Part shown: piece after piece, positions 26,074 through 31,890 of the stretch
Layout of the letters: the number at the start of each line of letters is the position of its first letter
Numbering within the stretch: the first letter of the stretch is position 1
Origin: an uncultured virus (IMG/VR IMGVR_UViG_3300009684_000029)
Taxonomy: Duplodnaviria > Heunggongvirae > Uroviricota > Caudoviricetes
Virus record (IMG/VR): IMGVR_UViG_3300009684_000029
DNA length: 64,000 nucleotides
Strand: one strand, 5' to 3'
Made by a program: the position numbers and the translations under genes
Notes under the pieces: generated by a model
Databases searched by the model: none
The model's input: only the letters and a program-made list of their open reading frames with translations
Told to the model about the DNA's origin: nothing

Positions 26074-27045
26074 ATGACAATCATAAATAAGATCTTAAAA
26101 ACAACAGAATCATTAAATATAAATGATACGACAAAAAAGAAAATATCCTTTAGTCAATATTCCAAATGGGCCAATTGCCCTAGAAGTTGGAAGCTTTCAT
26201 ATATAGATAAAATAAAAATATCAAGACCCTCTATATCATTAGTATTTGGAACTTCTTTCCACGAAACTCTACAGCATTTTTTATCGGTATTGTATAACGA
26301 TTCTGTAAAGAAAGCAAATCAAATTAATCTTCATGATATGTTGAAAGAACAAATGATGAATAACTATGCAGTAGATTTATCAAATAATAATGGAGTTCAT
26401 TTTGCTACTAAAGCTCAATTATTAGAACATTGGAATGATGGCTGCGAAATATTAGATTATATAGTTAAACATAGAGTAGAATACTTCTCAACTAAAGGAA
26501 TGGAATTAGTAGGTATTGAATTACCATTATTAGTTCAAGCTTCAGATAAAAATGAAAATGTATCATATCTTGGATATTTAGATTTAGTAATGTATGATAA
26601 AGATTTAGATAAGATTATTATATATGATATCAAAACATCTACAAAAGGATGGACAGATAAAGAAAAGAAAGATAAAGTCAAAACGTCCCAAGTAATCCTA
26701 TATAAAAAATACTTCTCTAAACTATTAGATTTCCCGGAAGATAAAATTAAAGTTGTATTTTGGATAGTAAGACGTAAATTATGGGAGAATCCTGATAATC
26801 CTTATATCAAAACAAAACGTATTCAAGAATTCATACCTACCGCAGGAACCAAGACAGTTAAAGATGTTGGAAGATCTATAGATACTTTTATATCAGAGTG
26901 TTTTAATGATGATGGAAGTTATAATACCGAAGCACAATATCCTGCTATATCTGGAGTAGAAAATATAAATTGTAAGTGGTGTGACTTTAAATCTCATGAA
27001 GGATGCCAATTAAGTGAACGTAAAACAACAAACTTATTTAAATAA
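26074..27045 (+). CDS. PD-(D/E)xK exonuclease (RecB/Cas4-like)
   Basis: SFSQ...CP, FGTSFHE, GYLDL...IYDIKT, Q..LY, CKWCDF....C. Confidence 0.88.
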   Translation: MTIINKILKTTESLNINDTTKKKISFSQYSKWANCPRSWKLSYIDKIKISRPSISLVFGTSFHETLQHFLSVLYNDSVKKANQINLHDMLKEQMMNNYAVDLSNNNGVHFATKAQLLEHWNDGCEILDYIVKHRVEYFSTKGMELVGIELPLLVQASDKNENVSYLGYLDLVMYDKDLDKIIIYDIKTSTKGWTDKEKKDKVKTSQVILYKKYFSKLLDFPEDKIKVVFWIVRRKLWENPDNPYIKTKRIQEFIPTAGTKTVKDVGRSIDTFISECFNDDGSYNTEAQYPAISGVENINCKWCDFKSHEGCQLSERKTTNLFK

Positions 27046-27084
27046 AGGTTTGGTATTTTAAATATTTTTTTATATATTAATGAT

Positions 27085-27522
27085 ATGATAGAGAAGCCTA
27101 AAATTTTAAAAATAGGAATTGCTGGAGATATAATTTATGAAAATGCAAGAAAAATTAAAGAAACGTTATTTCAGTTAAAGAACAGCCTTAAAGGACAAGA
27201 ATTTATAATATATTCATTAGGAAGTATACATGGAGCAGATAAATACATTAAAAAATATTGCTTAGAGCTTAATATTACTTATAAAGAATTTACACCATTA
27301 TTTCTTCCAGTAACATTATATTCTGTATTTCCGGCAGAGATGCATAATCAAAGATGGCATCCAGCAATAGCAGATAGGCACATAAGAAACTTCTTGAAAA
27401 CCTGCAAAAAATTCATTATATTTATTAATAAAGATGAAGTATCAAGTAAGTTTAATATAAAGTTAATTAAGTCTCAAACTACAAAACTAAAATCACCAAT
27501 AGTATTTATTAATGAAGGTTAA
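27085..27522 (+). CDS. SLOG/YspA-like protein
   Basis: KIGIAG...G..HGADKY. Confidence 0.5.
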   Translation: MIEKPKILKIGIAGDIIYENARKIKETLFQLKNSLKGQEFIIYSLGSIHGADKYIKKYCLELNITYKEFTPLFLPVTLYSVFPAEMHNQRWHPAIADRHIRNFLKTCKKFIIFINKDEVSSKFNIKLIKSQTTKLKSPIVFINEG

Positions 27523-27571
27523 AAAAAGGACCGGTTTTAAATATTAAGACGATAATTATATAAAATAAGTT

Positions 27572-27634
27572 ATGACAAACACCAAGAAACCAAAAATTCT
27601 CTTCTTGTGCGATGACCCTAGATTTAGTTGGTAG
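27572..27634 (+). pseudogene. Displaced original N-terminus of the glycosyltransferase at 28736/28807 (stub MTNTKKPKILFLCDDPRFS-W*)
   Basis: Joins in frame to RFSSGIAT at 28813 across the direct repeat AGATTTAGTT. Confidence 0.85.
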
Positions 27635-28822
27635 TTTTTACGACGATCCGAGATATTTATATTAAAGATATCATGGATTCCACTATACATACTATAACAG
27701 GCAGTATTTATATTCCTTGCGTTATTTGCGGGATTAAAATGAAGAATCGTATTAACGGCTCACATCTTAAAAAACACTTATTAACGATTCAAGAATACTT
27801 AATACAATATCCTGCAGCAGAAACAGGCTCATACAGTACATCAAATTTCAAATGTGCTATTTGTAATGAAGTAGTAAATAATAACTCTTCTATCAAATCA
27901 AAACATATTAATGGTCATGGATATACAATAGATGAATATAATATTAAATATACTAAAATAGAATGCGGTTGCGGCTGTGGTAATATAGCAGAATATTCAT
28001 ATTCTAGACATAAATATAATAAGTTCGTTACTGGGCACGATTATAAATCTTGGAATTCAGGATTGACAATGGATACAAACGATTCCTTAAAAAAAATATC
28101 TGAAGCTAGAAAGAAAACTAAAGGAACGTATACTAATAAACAAAAAAAGGAAATTTCCGAAAGATCTAAACTATATTGGAAAGCCCATCCAGAGTCTAAA
28201 ATATTAATGGTGTCTAAGATTAAAAATACTATGTTAGAGAAGTATGGTGTAGATAATTTTAGTAAACATTCATCATTTCTTGAGAAATTTAAAAAAACAT
28301 CGCAAGACCGGTATGGTGTAGATTATCCTAATCAAAACTCTGAAATATATGAAAAATCTTGCAAGAGTCGCAAATACTTTAAAGATTATATACTGCCATC
28401 AGGAAAAAAGATAAGAATACAAGGATATGAAGGTTATGCAATAGATATATTATTAACTATATATCATGAAAATGATATATTAACAAAAAAATCTGATATG
28501 CCTGAAGTATGGTATGAATTTGAAAATAAAAGACGTAGATATTATCCAGATATTTATATACCTTCACAAAATTTAATAATTGAGGTTAAATCTACTTTTA
28601 CATACAAATTAGAGACTCTACAAATACATTCCAAATTAAATGCTTTAAAAGAAATGGGATTTGATGCAAATATTTGGATTATCGATAAAAAAATATTATA
28701 TTCGATTATAAATTAATAAATAAAATAAGTTATATATGTTAAATGATTTAAACCAAGATAGTCGTCACTTGGAGAAGAAGAAGATTCTTTTCTTATGTGA
28801 CGACCCGTGACAAGATTTAGTT
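27630..28822 (+). mobile_element. Endonuclease element inserted in the 5' end of a GT gene, carrying a second copy of the N-terminus
   Basis: Direct repeat AGATTTAGTT at 27620-27629 and 28813-28822; internal promoter/hairpin, endonuclease and KKKILFLCDDP copy. Confidence 0.8.
27673..28716 (+). CDS. Putative homing endonuclease (Zn fingers plus PD-(D/E)xK)
   Basis: CVICG..HLKKH, CAIC..H, CGCGCG; KYGVDN/RYGVDY repeats; YYPDIYIP...IIEVKS; start at ATG 27673. Confidence 0.85.
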   Translation: MDSTIHTITGSIYIPCVICGIKMKNRINGSHLKKHLLTIQEYLIQYPAAETGSYSTSNFKCAICNEVVNNNSSIKSKHINGHGYTIDEYNIKYTKIECGCGCGNIAEYSYSRHKYNKFVTGHDYKSWNSGLTMDTNDSLKKISEARKKTKGTYTNKQKKEISERSKLYWKAHPESKILMVSKIKNTMLEKYGVDNFSKHSSFLEKFKKTSQDRYGVDYPNQNSEIYEKSCKSRKYFKDYILPSGKKIRIQGYEGYAIDILLTIYHENDILTKKSDMPEVWYEFENKRRRYYPDIYIPSQNLIIEVKSTFTYKLETLQIHSKLNALKEMGFDANIWIIDKKILYSIIN

Positions 28823-30168
28823 CAGGTATTGCCACGATGGCCAGAGAAGTTATCCTAGGCACCTGCCACGTATTTGATTACGTTGTTATAGGAGGCGCCT
28901 TAACCCATCCCGAAGAAGGACAAATTATCGATCTTTCAGAATCTATTAAAACAGATACGGGTAAGATTGCAAATGTAAAATTATATCCAGTATCAGGATA
29001 TGGAACACCAGATTTAGTAAGACATTTAATTACTGCAGAAAATCCTGATTGCATTCTTCATTTTACCGATCCTAGATATTGGATATGGTTATATAATATG
29101 GAAAATGAAATACGTCAGCGCATTCCTATTACGTATTTAAATATTTGGGATTGTCCGCCACCACCAATGTATAATAAACCATACTATCAATCATGTGATT
29201 TATTAATGAATATATCTAAACAAACTTATGGTATTGTTCATAAAGTATTAGATGGTTGCAATTATGAAGATTGGCAAATTACCTATGTTCCGCACGGTAT
29301 AAACGAATCTCATTTCTTTCCAATATCAAAAGACTCGGAAGGATATAAAAGCGTCTTAGACTTAAGGAAATCATTCTTAACGGGTAAGAAAAACAAAGAT
29401 GTTATTCCTGAATTCGTATTTTTATATAATTCAAGAAACATAAGAAGAAAACAAACAGCGGATATTATATTAGCATATAAAACATTCTGTGATAAGTTAC
29501 CTAAAGAAAAGGCTGCTAAATGTGTATTAGTTCTTCATACTCAACCAATAGATGAAAATGGAACTAACTTAATTGAAGTTAAAGATGTTCTTTGCCCCGA
29601 TTATAATGTTAGCTTTACAAACAGAGCCTTTAATGTTCATGAAATGAATACTTTATATAATGCATCTGATGTATTAATAAATATTTCAAGTAATGAAGGA
29701 TGGGGATTATCAGCAACGGAAGCTATGATGTCAGGTATATGTACTATTGTTAATATGACAGGAGGTCTTCAGGATCAAGTTGGATTAATGAAAGATGATG
29801 GTACTTTATTAACAGCAGATGATTATAAAGAAAAGGATTGGCATTCAAACCATGATGGAAGATATACTAAATGGGGCAATTGGTCAAAACCAATTATTCC
29901 AAGCAATCGTTCTATTCAAGGCTCTGTACCTACTCCTTATATCTTTGATGATAGAGTTAAGTTTGAAGATGTAGCAGAGGCTATGTTTGAATGGTATAAT
30001 ACTCCAGAAGAAACTAGAATCCAATATGGATTAGAAGCTCGTCAATATTTAATAGATAATAAAATGAGCGCAATAGGTATGTGTGAGAATGTTATTACAG
30101 ATATCACTACCTGCTTAGAAAATTTCGAACCTAAAGAAAGATTTACTCTTTTAAAGCTTACAAAATAA
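28736..30168 (+). CDS. GT4-like glycosyltransferase; 5' segment (28736-28807) is out of frame with the body (28807-30168)
   Basis: Body has FTDPRYW, YVPHG, NSRNIRRK, NEGWGL...EA; the segment MLND...KILFLCDDP stops at TGA 28808, 5 nt short of RFSSG. Confidence 0.8.
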
Positions 30169-30555: not shown

Positions 30556-31890
30556 ATGACATCAAATAAAAAGACTATCGTGCTGCAGGCGCCAATCTCT
30601 ACCTGTAGTGGCTACGGTGCCAGAAGTAGGGATATTGCGAAAGCATTAATAGAGAATGAAAACTATGATGTTACGATTATCCCTACTAGATGGGGTGATA
30701 CACCTCAAAATTTCTTGAATGATAAAGATCCTTTGCATCAAGAAATACTTAAACGATTTGCAGCCCCTAATCAACAAATACCTCAACCTGATACCTTTAT
30801 TCAGATTACAGTTCCTAATGAATTTCAAAAAGTCGGAACGCGCAAATCTATTGGTATTACAGCAGGTATGGAAACTACATTAGTAGATGCAGCTTGGATA
30901 GAAGGAAATAATCGTATGGATATGGTTCTTTGTTCTTCAAAACATTCAACAGAAGTAATGAAATCTAGTAAGTATGATAAAATGGATCAGAACACTAAAC
31001 AAAAGGTTGGAGAATTAATTTCTGAAAAAGAGATTGACATTTTATTTGAAGGAATAGATTTTAATATCTATAAGAAGATAGAAACCATTAATTTTAATGT
31101 AAATGCTTTTATTTCGCAGATACCAGAAACATTCTGCTTTTTAGTTGTTGGGCATTGGCTTCAAGGACAAATGTGGGAAGACAGAAAAAATATGGGAGGT
31201 ACTATATATACTTTCTTAAATGCTTTTAAAGGTAAGAAGAATGTACCTGCATTGATACTTAAAATTAGTTGTGGCTCATATTCTGAAATAGATCGTCAAG
31301 AAATTCAAAAGCGCGTTAATCAAATTAAAAAGATGTTTGATGACGAAGGAATAAGAATACCTAATATTTACTTATTACATGGTGATTTAACGGATGAAGA
31401 AATGAATTCATTATATAATCATCCAAAGGTAAAAGCTATGGTGTCTATGACTAAAGGAGAAGGATTTGGAAGACCGTTAGCAGAATTTGCAGTTACAGGA
31501 AAACCAATTATTGTTTCTCAATATTCAGGTCATATGGATTTTCTTCCTAATGAAATGGTTATGTATGTTCCAGGTGAAATGAGACCAGTTCATGCATCAG
31601 CAGTTATTCCTAATTTAATATTAGCAGAATCGCAATGGTTTATGCCTAATCCAGCAATCGTTGAAAGATATTTAAATGATACTTTTGAAAATTATAAAGT
31701 AAAATTGGAATCATCTCGTAAGCTAACTAAATACTTAAAAGATAATTTTTCTTTTGATAAGATGAAAGAAAATCTTTATAATTATATCGATGCTCCCGTT
31801 AAGGTAATAGCACCGAAGCCACAAATGCAACAATTGAAGTTACCTCAAATCAAAAAAATTGAGCTACCCAAATTAAAGAAAATAGATTAA
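30556..31890 (+). CDS. GT4-like glycosyltransferase
   Basis: SGYGARSRD, VGHWL...DRKN, KGEGFGRPL.EF, SGHMDFL. Confidence 0.88.
   Translation: MTSNKKTIVLQAPISTCSGYGARSRDIAKALIENENYDVTIIPTRWGDTPQNFLNDKDPLHQEILKRFAAPNQQIPQPDTFIQITVPNEFQKVGTRKSIGITAGMETTLVDAAWIEGNNRMDMVLCSSKHSTEVMKSSKYDKMDQNTKQKVGELISEKEIDILFEGIDFNIYKKIETINFNVNAFISQIPETFCFLVVGHWLQGQMWEDRKNMGGTIYTFLNAFKGKKNVPALILKISCGSYSEIDRQEIQKRVNQIKKMFDDEGIRIPNIYLLHGDLTDEEMNSLYNHPKVKAMVSMTKGEGFGRPLAEFAVTGKPIIVSQYSGHMDFLPNEMVMYVPGEMRPVHASAVIPNLILAESQWFMPNPAIVERYLNDTFENYKVKLESSRKLTKYLKDNFSFDKMKENLYNYIDAPVKVIAPKPQMQQLKLPQIKKIELPKLKKID

What the first reader, a model, noticed from the sequence alone, without database searches (positions are those of the whole stretch)
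28736..28830. Replacement start is out of frame: candidate -1 frameshift at GAC-CCG-TGA
Seen: the replacement N-terminus reads GAC GAC CCG TGA CA AGA TTT AGT, i.e. 5 extra nt (TGACA) relative to the stub's GAC CCT AGA TTT AGT. The 453-codon body is otherwise intact. Inference: a P-site tRNA-Pro slip from CCG to CCC while paused at UGA would give DDP-VT-RFSSG and a full-length enzyme. Starting at GTG 28807 instead would lose the first GT-B beta strand (KILFLCDD). Alternatives are precise excision of the element acting as a switch, recent inactivation, or an assembly error.
Basis: partly seen in the sequence, partly recalled or inferred. Interest (0 to 1): 0.7.

Follow-up and report, generated by a model that had tools for sequence, protein, structure and literature searches.

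The report
Ribosome-bypass cassette in phage glycosyltransferase gene
A phage sugar-transferase gene was invaded by a selfish endonuclease cassette that leaves a five-base gap holding a stop codon near the gene's start, and related phages suggest that ribosomes skip such gaps with the help of a conserved RNA hairpin, much as in phage T4 gene 60.

Summary
A 24-codon leader ORF (28736-28810) ends ...GAC GAC CCG TGA, and an intact 451-codon GT4 glycosyltransferase body resumes at AGA 28813, 5 nt out of register.

It is not an assembly error: an independent contig (L024) carries the same 5 nt.

The locus is a homing-endonuclease (HEG) insertion. It reads old 5' stub, HEG, then a replacement 5' end.

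In about 280 distinct family loci, the gap site lies inside an almost invariant DD.R..SG motif. Seven genomes are interrupted exactly there, with five gap types of 5, 6, 8, 9 and 41 nt. All seven share three features:
- a stop codon directly after the last leader codon;
- an N-terminal extension whose RNA pairs with the beta-1 coding sequence;
- the resulting strong hairpin ends at that codon, shows compensatory changes, and is absent from all 256 intact alleles.

In four of the five types the gap ends in a codon synonymous with the take-off codon, so a hop restores the consensus protein. The 41-nt type has a gene-60-like layout.

Best reading: a HEG-linked translational bypass cassette. A dead allele or a split gene is not excluded. 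Nothing has been tested at the bench.

The parts
27560..27573 (+). 14-nt upstream motif ATAAAATAAGTTAT, copy 1, in front of the stub's ATG.
   Evidence: identical to 28720-28733.
27572..27634 (+). Stub. It is the original 5' end of the glycosyltransferase gene (20 codons, MTNTKKPKILFLCDDPRFSW, then TAG), cut off by the insertion.
   Evidence: Its N-terminus is the local type seen in the uninterrupted L002/L003.
27620..27629 (+). 10-nt direct repeat AGATTTAGTT, copy 1, at the left junction of the insertion.
   Evidence: identical to 28813-28822.
27641..27666 (+). 26-nt element identical in the window and in L004. It looks like a second remnant of the DDPR-coding target, followed by a short palindrome just before the HEG ATG.
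   Evidence: Read by eye. The identity profile gives 26 of 30 at 27643-27672.
27673..28716 (+). Homing-endonuclease-like ORF of 347 aa. Two C2H2-like fingers lie N-terminally (by eye). The C-terminal domain is DUF7487, with invariant E253, D293, E304 and K306.
   Evidence: Pfam PF24308, E = 4.7e-45. PHROGs 'endonuclease' and 'homing endonuclease' families. Alignment. Absent from 98%-identical relatives.
28720..28733 (+). 14-nt upstream motif, copy 2, in front of the leader ATG.
28736..28810 (+). Leader ORF, the replacement 5' end: MLNDLNQDSRHLEKKKILFLCDDP followed by TGA.
   Evidence: The same leader occurs in L024 with no HEG, and a near-identical one in L004 and L026.
28761..28804 (+). Two-tier RNA hairpin: an outer stem of 8 bp, a 2x3 internal loop, an inner stem of 9 bp and a 5-nt loop. 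Its 3' arm is the beta-1/DD coding sequence, and it ends 1 nt before the take-off codon.
   Evidence: -22.4 kcal/mol, z = -4.6, 0 of 200 shuffles fold as well. Found only in interrupted alleles. Compensatory changes are tabulated.
28805..28807 (+). CCG, the last leader sense codon and proposed take-off codon.
28808..28812 (+). The 5-nt coding gap TGACA. Its first three bases are the in-frame stop TGA.
28807..28809 (+). GTG overlapping the stop (GTGA). This is the alternative reinitiation start, and its product would lack beta-1.
28813..30168 (+). Glycosyltransferase body from Arg17 (AGA) to the stop: 451 codons, GT-B fold, GT4-like. The first 10 nt are copy 2 of the direct repeat.
   Evidence: Pfam PF00534, E = 1.4e-9. 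Alignment. Model and fold matches to 3oy2, MshA and BshA.

Best explanation
The 5-nt insert is the coding gap of a mobile cassette made of a homing endonuclease plus a cleavage-immune replacement 5' end for the glycosyltransferase gene.

Shown:
- The HEG sits exactly at the conserved DD.R..SG-coding site.
- The cassette brings its own start, an N-terminal extension, a recoded copy of beta-1 and a short gap that starts with a stop codon.
- The extension's RNA pairs with the beta-1 coding RNA in a strong hairpin that ends at the last leader codon.

Inferred:
- Ribosomes that start at ATG 28736 pause with peptidyl-tRNA-Pro on CCG and UGA in the A site.
- The hairpin refolds as its 3' arm leaves the ribosome and drives the mRNA forward.
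- Decoding resumes at AGA 28813. This is a +5 hop with the tRNA over ACA, where 2 of 3 positions can pair. It gives the wild-type DDP|RFSSG junction and a full-length enzyme.
- The gap also destroys the HEG's target and so protects the cassette. This step rests on analogy with MobA/gene 60.

For this allele alone, a -1 slip, or no productive decoding at all, remains possible.
For: 1. Mobility.
- L002 and L003 (98% protein identity) have the uninterrupted gene and no HEG.
- The window and L004 (81% identity) each have their own local-type stub, then the HEG, then the same leader.
- HEG-like matches occur in the window contig and L004 only, among the GT-bearing loci of 403 loci searched.

2. The site matters.
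- DD.R..SG in one frame was found in 158 of 167 loci, and in 326 of 339 after further scans. The loci lacking it are the interrupted ones plus three that could not be evaluated.
- Beta-1 spans residues 7-14.

3. Seven interrupted genomes carry five gap types at the same site.
- Window and L024: CCG TGA CA|AGA.
- L004 and L026: CCG TAA AAA CCT|AGA.
- L030: CGA TAA AA AGA|GTT.
- L260: CGG TAG CGA|CTC.
- L389: ATT TGA, a 41-nt gap, then ATC|AGA.
- The codon after take-off is a stop in 5 of 5 types. Stop trinucleotides make up 0.080 of the window, so the chance value is p^5 = 3e-6.
- In 4 of 5 types the gap ends in a codon for the same amino acid as the take-off codon. A hop then gives exactly the consensus seen in the nearest intact relatives: L260 against L294-L303, and L389 against L120.

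4. The hairpin.
- The 84-nt MFE is -22.4 to -31.0 kcal/mol in 6 of 6 distinct interrupted loci. In 256 intact loci the mean is -8.5, sd 3.2 and minimum -17.2.
- z-scores run from -4.6 to -7.2, with 0 of 200 shuffles folding as well.
- A perfect inverted repeat of 8 bp or more occurs only in interrupted loci.
- The 3' end of the stem sits at, or 1 nt before, the first base of the take-off codon, although take-off is codon 16 in some types and codon 17 in others.
- Four stem positions show double compensatory changes.

5. L389 has a gene-60-like layout: a 5' stem-loop, a stop after take-off, a stem-loop inside the gap that pairs the take-off and landing regions, and GGAGG 6 nt 5' of the landing codon.

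6. All bodies are intact.

7. Literature.
- The MobA/gene 60 cassette has the same logic. Its 5' stem-loop is proposed to propel bypassing (Manning & Atkins, bioRxiv 10.1101/2022.08.31.505936, Introduction and Discussion read).
- Stop-hops in which 9 nt encode one residue are known from synthetic constructs (PMC5009743, passages).
Against: - There is no experimental or proteomic evidence of any kind.
- The window's own gap is the one type without a synonymous landing codon. ACA can pair at only 2 of 3 positions.
- GTG (window) and ATG (L389) overlap the leader stop, so termination-reinitiation is possible in those two types.
- dN/dS cannot show selection since the interruption, because the cassette moves between backgrounds. 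The window's body is closer to the uninterrupted L002 (dS 0.13) than to L024 (dS 0.21).
- The 2-nt repeats flanking the gaps (CC, CG, GA, AT) could be repair scars rather than selected landing codons.
- No intact allele keeps the extension or the hairpin, so interrupted alleles could be short-lived.
- The sample is only seven genomes.
- The contig-level read data left the site uncovered.
Confidence: 0.55

Rival explanations
1. One reading: a -1 frameshift. Peptidyl-tRNA-Pro slips from CCG to CCC while UGA is in the A site, and reading continues GTG ACA AGA, giving DDP-VT-RFSSG.
For: C CCG TGA allows full re-pairing in the -1 frame, and the body is in that frame. A stop in the A site and a C-terminal Asp-Asp-Pro favour pausing; this last point is recalled knowledge, not from a call.
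Against: - It is non-productive or impossible in the four other gap types that share the hairpin and stop design.
- Its product adds 2 residues inside a spacing kept in 158 of 158 uninterrupted loci.
- No significant downstream stimulator was predicted.
- The conserved hairpin lies upstream. That position is reported to attenuate -1 shifts and to stimulate forward shifts (PMC6321510, abstract start in the listing).
Confidence: 0.12
2. A dead but HEG-immune allele. The gap is a repair scar or protective insert that stops cleavage and inactivates a dispensable gene, and the body has simply not yet decayed.
For: The cassette spreads horizontally and seems recent in the window's lineage. The window's gap lacks a matched landing codon. 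No 'hit-and-run' intact alleles that retain the hairpin were seen.
Against: - It does not explain why 7 of 7 interrupted genomes carry a hairpin kept by compensatory changes.
- It does not explain a stop as the first gap codon in 5 of 5 types.
- It does not explain the synonymous duplicate codon in 4 of 5 types.
- The beta-1 residues of the leader are kept through synonymous recoding, for example Ser AGC in L260 against TCG/TCA in its relatives.
- Five of the seven genomes have no HEG to drive a dead allele, yet all bodies are intact.
Confidence: 0.2
3. A gene in pieces. The 24-residue leader peptide (beta-1 plus DDP) and a body reinitiated at GTG 28807 (GTGA overlap) are made separately and assemble. 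This would resemble HEG-split nrdA, or T4 gp39/gp60.
For: A start codon overlaps the stop in the window (GTGA) and in L389 (TGATG). HEG-split phage genes that stay functional are known (Manning & Atkins, Discussion).
Against: - No start codon lies near the stop in L004/L026 or L260. The first in-frame ATG there is 11-12 codons on, beyond the invariant R17, S20 and G21.
- In L030 only AUA overlaps the stop.
- The model explains neither the hairpin nor the duplicated codon.
- The GTG lies 2 nt 3' of a -22 kcal/mol hairpin.
Confidence: 0.1
4. An artefact or a DNA-level solution: an assembly error, an intron, an alternative genetic code, or precise excision between the 10-nt repeats that restores the gene.
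For: The direct repeats AGATTTAGTT (27620-27629 and 28813-28822) could in principle mediate excision.
Against: - The same insert is present in the independent contig L024.
- No Rfam intron or other RNA family matched 27300-29100 at E <= 10, apart from two chance-level hits.
- The five gap types use all three stop codons, and three of the five gap lengths (5, 8 and 41 nt) put the body out of frame, so no single code change works.
- The window has no tRNA, and none of the tRNAs found in the scanned loci of L004's phage is a suppressor.
- No joint was seen in the laid contigs, but the site was not covered.
Confidence: 0.03

Closest known systems
Phage T4 gene 60 / MobA translational bypass cassette (50-nt coding gap in the topoisomerase gene)
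   Same: - A HEG is inserted in a conserved ORF.
- The cassette supplies a new start and an N-terminal extension.
- A short insert lies inside the conserved motif and target.
- A stop follows directly after the take-off codon.
[quoted passage not shown]
- There is a 5' stem-loop.
- Cassettes persist after the HEG is lost.
- L389 adds a stem-loop inside the gap and a GGAGG 6 nt before landing.
   Different: - The host gene is different (a GT4 glycosyltransferase).
- The HEG family is different: DUF7487, PD-(D/E)XK-like by motif, not MobA.
- The leaders are not homologous.
- Gaps of 5-9 nt are too short for a take-off stem-loop.
- The 5' hairpin here is the most conserved element, whereas in gene 60 relatives it is the least conserved (Manning & Atkins, Discussion).
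- The old 5' stub is a 20-codon remnant, not a functional first half.
- Bypassing has not been shown here.
[quoted passage not shown] 1987, seen only as a reference-list entry; described in PMC5009743)
   Same: L260 (CGG TAG CGA) has exactly this layout. L004 (+9), L030 (+8) and the window (+5) are close variants.
   Different: Those hops are non-programmed and of low efficiency, in artificial constructs. The 2016 review states that no natural in-frame stop hop was known. Here the sites are natural, recurrent and flanked by a dedicated hairpin.
byp elements of Magnusiomyces capitatus mitochondria (27-55 nt bypassed inserts)
   Same: Mobile inserts in essential coding sequence are tolerated through bypassing. 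[quoted passage not shown]
   Different: That system is mitochondrial, uses an unassigned A-site codon rather than a stop, has no HEG and has no defined 5' hairpin.
HEG-split phage genes (mobE in Aeh1 nrdA; T4 genes 39 and 60)
   Same: A free-standing HEG inserted inside an ORF, with added terminal sequences at the split.
   Different: Here the first piece would be only 24 residues, and three of the five gap types have no start for the second piece.
Programmed -1 or +1 frameshift sites with a stop in the A site (for example prfB)
   Same: The ribosome pauses on a stop codon with a shift-prone P-site tRNA.
   Different: No single-nucleotide shift fits the sister cassettes, and the stimulator is a large upstream hairpin.

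Membership tests
Gene 60-type programmed translational bypass cassette | A non-coding gap inside an otherwise continuous ORF. Removing the gap restores the conserved protein. | tested here: met
   Removing 5 nt (window, L024), 9 nt (L004, L026), 8 nt (L030), 6 nt (L260) or 41 nt (L389) restores DD.R..SG.
Gene 60-type programmed translational bypass cassette | A stop or slow codon immediately 3' of the take-off codon. | tested here: met
   TGA, TAA, TAA, TAG and TGA in 5 of 5 gap types. The chance value is about 3e-6.
Gene 60-type programmed translational bypass cassette | [quoted passage not shown] | tested here: inconclusive
   CCG/CCT (L004) and ATT/ATC (L389) are matched. CGG/CGA (L260) and CGA/AGA (L030) encode the same amino acid but can pair at only 2 of 3 positions, depending on the tRNA. 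The window's own CCG has only ACA before the resume codon, so the feature is not met there.
Gene 60-type programmed translational bypass cassette | A take-off stem-loop within the gap, with the take-off codon on its 5' side. | tested here: not met
   The window's gap is only 5 nt. The feature is present only in L389 (-23.3 kcal/mol, z = -4.3).
Gene 60-type programmed translational bypass cassette | A 5' stem-loop that can refold behind the ribosome. | tested here: met
   Present in 7 of 7 interrupted genomes and in none of 256 intact alleles.
Gene 60-type programmed translational bypass cassette | A nascent-peptide signal, and a demonstrated bypass product. | not testable with these tools
   All cassettes have an N-terminal extension of 14-19 residues, but it also encodes the hairpin arm. 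No protein data exist.
MobA element (by descent) | Insertion in the topoisomerase II large-subunit gene, with a MobA-type endonuclease. | tested here: not met
   The host gene is a GT4 glycosyltransferase (PF00534). The HEG matches only DUF7487 in Pfam.
Free-standing homing endonuclease | Presence/absence polymorphism at one site between close relatives, with flanking co-conversion. | tested here: met
   The window carries the HEG, whereas L002, L003 and L024 do not. Local stubs occur in two lineages. A tract at 28843-28860 resembles L004/L026 (by eye).
Free-standing homing endonuclease | A nuclease fold and site-specific cleavage of the intact target. | tested here: inconclusive
   Invariant E253, D293, E304 and K306 fit a PD-(D/E)XK motif. 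The model has pLDDT 59, and Foldseek found no match at E <= 0.001; the weak hits are PD-(D/E)XK nucleases. Cleavage cannot be tested here.
-1 programmed ribosomal frameshift site | A slippery site plus a 3' stimulator, conserved among relatives. | tested here: not met
   C CCG allows the slip, but no significant 3' structure was found, and the relatives do not keep a -1 solution.
GT-B fold, GT4-like glycosyltransferase | Two Rossmann-like domains, a Glycos_transf_1 C-terminal domain, and an N-terminal beta-1/loop/helix. | tested here: met
   PF00534, E = 1.4e-9. Model with pTM 0.88. Foldseek matches 3oy2, 3c4q and 3mbo at E down to 1.9e-15.

The most novel reading that the evidence does not exclude
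This would be a second, independent family of homing-endonuclease-linked translational bypass cassettes. It sits in a phage glycosyltransferase gene, with gaps from 41 nt (gene-60-like layout) down to 5 nt. The family would include the first natural 'stop-hops'. It would also show a mechanism in which a dedicated two-tier hairpin, refolding as its 3' arm leaves the ribosome, ratchets 5-9 nt of mRNA through a ribosome stalled on a stop codon. In the window's allele this would happen without a matched landing codon.
Probability: 0.35. Interest if true: 0.9.

Novelty: new variant of a known kind. Interest (0 to 1): 0.8.

Why it matters
Programmed bypassing in phages is known only from gene 60 and its homologues, all in topoisomerase genes. 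This is stated in Manning & Atkins 2022, whose Introduction and Discussion I read. The 2016 recoding review says that shorter-distance counterparts had 'long been presumed' and that no natural in-frame stop hop was known (passages).

If these cassettes are bypassed, three things follow:
- Homing endonucleases have at least twice solved self-immunity inside a conserved motif by the same trick.
- The cassettes form a natural series of gap lengths (5, 6, 8, 9 and 41 nt) with one shared hairpin design, which makes the proposed role of mRNA refolding at the ribosome exit directly testable.
- Gene callers miss such genes, because they report a truncated enzyme.

My four literature searches found no description of bypassing in a glycosyltransferase gene. 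The library holds only open-licence PMC papers and bioRxiv preprints, and I could not see supplements of the preprints.

Tried and rejected
- **Group I or other intron.** The Rfam scan of 27300-29100 at E <= 10 gave only two chance-level hits.
- **Assembly error.** Rejected on the evidence of L024.
- **Suppressor tRNA or an altered code.** The window has no tRNA. L004's 197-kb phage gave 33 Rfam tRNA matches, and ARAGORN named no suppressor in the 8 loci scanned. The five gaps use all three stop codons.
- **Reads.** The four runs laid were Logan contigs only, and none covers 28765-28911, so nothing can be said about the site. No joint was found. A metatranscriptome held two 151-nt contigs inside the HEG ORF, which does not prove transcription.
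- **No whole genome is held** for the window.
- **Pattern scan for the leader in viral contigs.** It returned only the window-like contig, L004 and one chance match, L005.
- **Viral scan with the L030 protein.** It found only L030's own contig.
- **dN/dS of bodies** (interrupted pairs 0.048 and 0.128; intact pairs 0.064-0.158). This is uninformative on function because the cassette recombines between backgrounds.
- **Window-versus-L004 identity profile**. The hairpin scores 29 of 30, but the 3' half of the HEG is also 25-29 of 30, so the conservation is only modestly exceptional.
- **MAFFT alignments of the hairpins**. They were not in structural register for L260, so I tabulated pairs anchored on the take-off codon in a script. 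I did not use the count of structure pairs or a covariance model.
- **HEG classification.** There was no PDB sequence match and no significant fold match.
- **Earlier-findings look-up.** It returned nothing.
- **Complex prediction** for leader peptide plus body was not run, because the leader is under 30 residues.
- **L392** looked truncated in my script but is intact at the site. It is a low-quality contig with Ns.
Full report
**1. Observation**

The window is AT-rich phage-like DNA (29% G+C) with closely packed genes on the + strand. At 28736 an ATG opens a 24-codon ORF that ends ...AAG ATT CTT TTC TTA TGT GAC GAC CCG TGA. The long ORF 28807..30168 (453 aa from GTG) is in the -1/+2 frame. 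It reads V-T-R-F-S-S-G-I-A and onward.

A 20-codon stub at 27572-27634 ends GAT GAC CCT AGA TTT AGT TGG TAG. Against the stub, and against the uninterrupted relatives, the downstream copy has five extra bases, TGACA, at 28808-28812.

**2. Anatomy of the locus**

Between the stub and the leader lies a 347-codon ORF (27673-28716). It matches Pfam DUF7487 at E = 4.7e-45 and PHROGs 'endonuclease' and 'homing endonuclease' families. An alignment with six relatives keeps E253, D293, E304 and K306, a PD-(D/E)XK-like motif. The fold search was not significant.

The body is a GT-B, GT4-like glycosyltransferase:
- Pfam PF00534, E = 1.4e-9.
- The AlphaFold model of the intact relative has pLDDT 89 and pTM 0.88.
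- Foldseek matches a chlorovirus glycosyltransferase (3oy2), MshA and BshA.

In that model beta-1 is residues 7-14, the loop is 15-20 and the first helix is 21-33.

Two direct repeats flank the insertion:
- 14 nt, at 27560-27573 and 28720-28733.
- 10 nt, at 27620-27629 and 28813-28822.

**3. The insertion is mobile**

| Locus | Protein identity to the window's GT | State |
|---|---|---|
| L002, L003 | 98% | uninterrupted gene directly after the upstream 145-codon gene; no HEG |
| L004 (197-kb complete phage) | 81% | own stub of the local N-terminal type seen intact in L025, a 71.5%-identical HEG, and a nearly identical leader |
| L024 | 98% | leader and gap, but no HEG and no stub |
| L026 | 81% | leader and gap, but no HEG and no stub |

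Among 403 loci held at the end, HEG-like matches occur only in the window-like contig, in L004, and in loci that were fetched with the HEG itself.

**4. The gap sits in a conserved motif**

I examined the 5' ends of family members from one metagenome scan, four viral-contig scans with glycosyltransferase protein alignments, single-protein viral scans and one genome-contig scan. Each alignment scan returned only the best 80 of 139 to more than 600 relatives.
- 158 of the first 167 loci read DD.R..SG in one frame. The nine that do not are the interrupted ones.
- After all viral scans the tally was 326 intact, 10 interrupted and 3 not evaluable.
- After removing duplicates this is 256 intact and 6 interrupted.
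- The MAG scan gave 20 loci, of which 16 could be evaluated: 13 canonical, 2 distant variants and 1 interrupted.

**5. Five gap types at one site**

| Locus | Sequence at the gap | Gap |
|---|---|---|
| window, L024 | CCG TGA CA \| AGA | 5 nt |
| L260 | CGG TAG CGA \| CTC | 6 nt |
| L030 | CGA TAA AA AGA \| GTT | 8 nt |
| L004, L026 | CCG TAA AAA CCT \| AGA | 9 nt |
| L389 | ATT TGA, 33 further nt, ATC \| AGA | 41 nt |

- In all five types the first gap codon is an in-frame stop. Stop trinucleotides make up 0.080 of the window, so five of five has a chance of about 3e-6.
- In four of the five, the last gap codon encodes the same amino acid as the last leader codon. Joining the leader to the resume codon then gives exactly the sequence of the nearest intact relatives. 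For L260 these are ten relatives at 70-79% identity, all reading SDDLRLTSG or SDDMRLTSG. For L389 the match is L120, CDDIRMHSGIATMAREIV.
- Readthrough would add two or three residues to the in-frame types and cannot serve the other three.
- A -1 shift serves only the window type.
- All five bodies are open full-length frames.

**6. The hairpin**

Every interrupted allele has an N-terminal extension of 14-19 residues before the conserved KKIL... The RNA of that extension is complementary to the beta-1/DD coding sequence.

| Locus | MFE (kcal/mol) | z-score | Shuffles folding as well |
|---|---|---|---|
| window | -22.4 | -4.6 | 0 of 200 |
| L004 | -25.2 | -4.9 | 0 of 200 |
| L030 | -28.0 | -7.2 | 0 of 200 |
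| L260 | -31.8 | -5.0 | 0 of 200 |
| L389 (5' stem-loop) | -22.8 | -5.5 | 0 of 200 |
| L002 (intact control) | -3.7 | +0.5 | 137 of 200 |
| L025 (intact control) | -3.5 | +0.85 | 165 of 200 |

- Over an 84-nt window, the six distinct interrupted loci give -22.4 to -31.0 kcal/mol. The 256 intact loci give a mean of -8.5, sd 3.2 and a minimum of -17.2.
- A perfect inverted repeat of 8 bp or more ending within 16 nt of the Arg17 codon occurs only in the interrupted loci.
- The architecture recurs: an outer stem of 8-10 bp, a small internal loop and an inner stem.
- The outer stem ends at, or 1 nt before, the first base of the take-off codon. This holds although take-off is codon 16 in the window, L004 and L389 but codon 17 in L030 and L260.
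- Anchored on that base, four outer-stem positions show double compensatory changes. Examples are G-C/A-U, U-A/C-G, C-G/A-U/G-C and C-G/U-A. No position loses pairing except the terminal A.C in the window.
- The leader keeps the beta-1 amino acids while its codons are recoded. An example is Ser AGC in L260 against TCG/TCA in its relatives.
- The arms in L389 (UUUCGUCAC...GUGACGA) are homologous to the window's. The 41-nt and 5-nt gaps therefore belong to one cassette lineage.

**7. Reading**

The design has these parts:
- a HEG at a conserved site;
- a replacement 5' end with an extension;
- a short insert in the target;
- a stop after the take-off codon;
- a synonymous landing codon;
- a 5' stem-loop.

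This is the design of the MobA/gene 60 cassette. There the insert protects against the endonuclease, and the 5' stem-loop, which forms after it leaves the ribosome, is proposed to propel bypassing. Cassettes there also outlive the endonuclease (Manning & Atkins, bioRxiv 10.1101/2022.08.31.505936; Introduction and Discussion read). The Wills et al. preprint 10.1101/2024.12.09.627546 I saw as abstract only.

L389 adds two more gene 60 features. It has a stem-loop inside the gap that pairs the take-off and landing regions (-23.3 kcal/mol, z = -4.3), and GGAGG lies 6 nt before the landing codon.

Stop-hops in which 9 nt specify one residue, and +5/+6 hops, are known from synthetic constructs. The 2016 review says no natural in-frame stop hop was known (PMC5009743, passages). 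Weiss 1987 and Herr 2004 I saw only as reference-list entries.

An upstream refolding hairpin is reported to attenuate -1 shifts and stimulate forward shifts, also in 70S ribosomes (PMC6321510, abstract start in the listing).

I therefore infer forward bypassing. The strength and placement of the hairpin suggest that zipping of the outer stem pulls a few bases of mRNA through a ribosome stalled on the stop.

**8. The window's own allele**

The window type is the odd one, because no proline codon precedes AGA. The options are:
- a +5 hop with the tRNA over ACA, giving the wild-type junction;
- a +2 shift, giving one extra residue;
- no productive decoding.

The gap could descend from a CCG TGA CCA AGA stop-hop by loss of one C. 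This is my conjecture only.

UGA followed by C as a weak terminator, and Asp-Asp-Pro as a poor termination context, are recalled knowledge and come from no call.

**9. Caveats**
- Nothing has been shown at the protein level.
- dN/dS of interrupted pairs (0.048 and 0.128) equals that of intact pairs (0.064-0.158). However, the window's body is closer to the intact L002 than to L024, and sequence similarity drops right after the gap. The cassette has therefore been moved between backgrounds, and the ratio says little.
- The hairpin's 29 of 30 identity between the window and L004 is matched by parts of the HEG.
- Start codons overlap the stop in the window and in L389.
- The 2-nt repeats flanking the gaps may be repair scars.
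- No intact allele retains the hairpin.
- The laid contigs did not cover the site.

**10. Verdict**

Noticed in passing
window 27641-27666; L004 1851-1876: A 26-nt element between the stub and the HEG start is identical in the window and in L004, although its flanks differ. It reads like another remnant of the DDPR-coding target, followed by a short palindrome that abuts the HEG ATG. It may be an older junction or a regulator of HEG translation.
   Followed up: partly
L185 1138-1212; L193 1610-1730 and 1904-1996 (L004's phage, G002): The complete 197-kb phage of L004 gave 33 Rfam tRNA matches (two of them below the family cut-off), including two tRNA-Pro(UGG). It also has a low-scoring tRNA-like gene that ARAGORN reads with a 6-nt anticodon loop ('gg'), and two long tRNA-like elements beside the second tRNA-Pro. 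A doublet-reading Pro-like tRNA would be notable next to a Pro-codon recoding site, but it would not rescue L004's in-frame gap.
   Followed up: partly
L213 2040-2100 (Microcystis phage Mel-JY01, PP395634.1): The homologous glycosyltransferase of this cultured phage is annotated as two CDSs. The first ends at a TAA in a variable insert, and the second starts 11 nt on in the +1 frame. This is a different site from the one studied here. It may be a sequencing error or a real split.
   Followed up: no
window 26074-27522 and 30556-31890; L030, L389, L213: Synteny is conserved across 50%-identical phages: a PD-(D/E)XK nuclease, one or two small genes, then the glycosyltransferase. In the window a second weak Glycos_transf_1 protein (30556-31890) follows.
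   Followed up: partly
window 27977-28127 and 28433-28583: A lake metatranscriptome run (X9) holds two 151-nt contigs identical to the HEG ORF. DNA carry-over cannot be excluded.
   Followed up: no
window 27560-27573 and 28720-28733: Recombination between the two copies of the 14-nt motif ATAAAATAAGTTAT would remove the stub and the HEG. It would leave the arrangement seen in L024, with the leader allele directly after the upstream gene.
   Followed up: partly
window 28843-28860: Just 3' of the gap, the window carries a short tract (GTTATCCTAGGC) that resembles L004/L026 rather than its 98% relatives. It looks like a co-conversion tract from the cassette donor.
   Followed up: partly
L400 and L401 (MAG contigs): Two distant family members depart from the motif: L400 reads DDIQ in place of DD.R, and L401 has no DD at all. 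Arg17 and the DD pair are therefore not absolute outside the core family.
   Followed up: no
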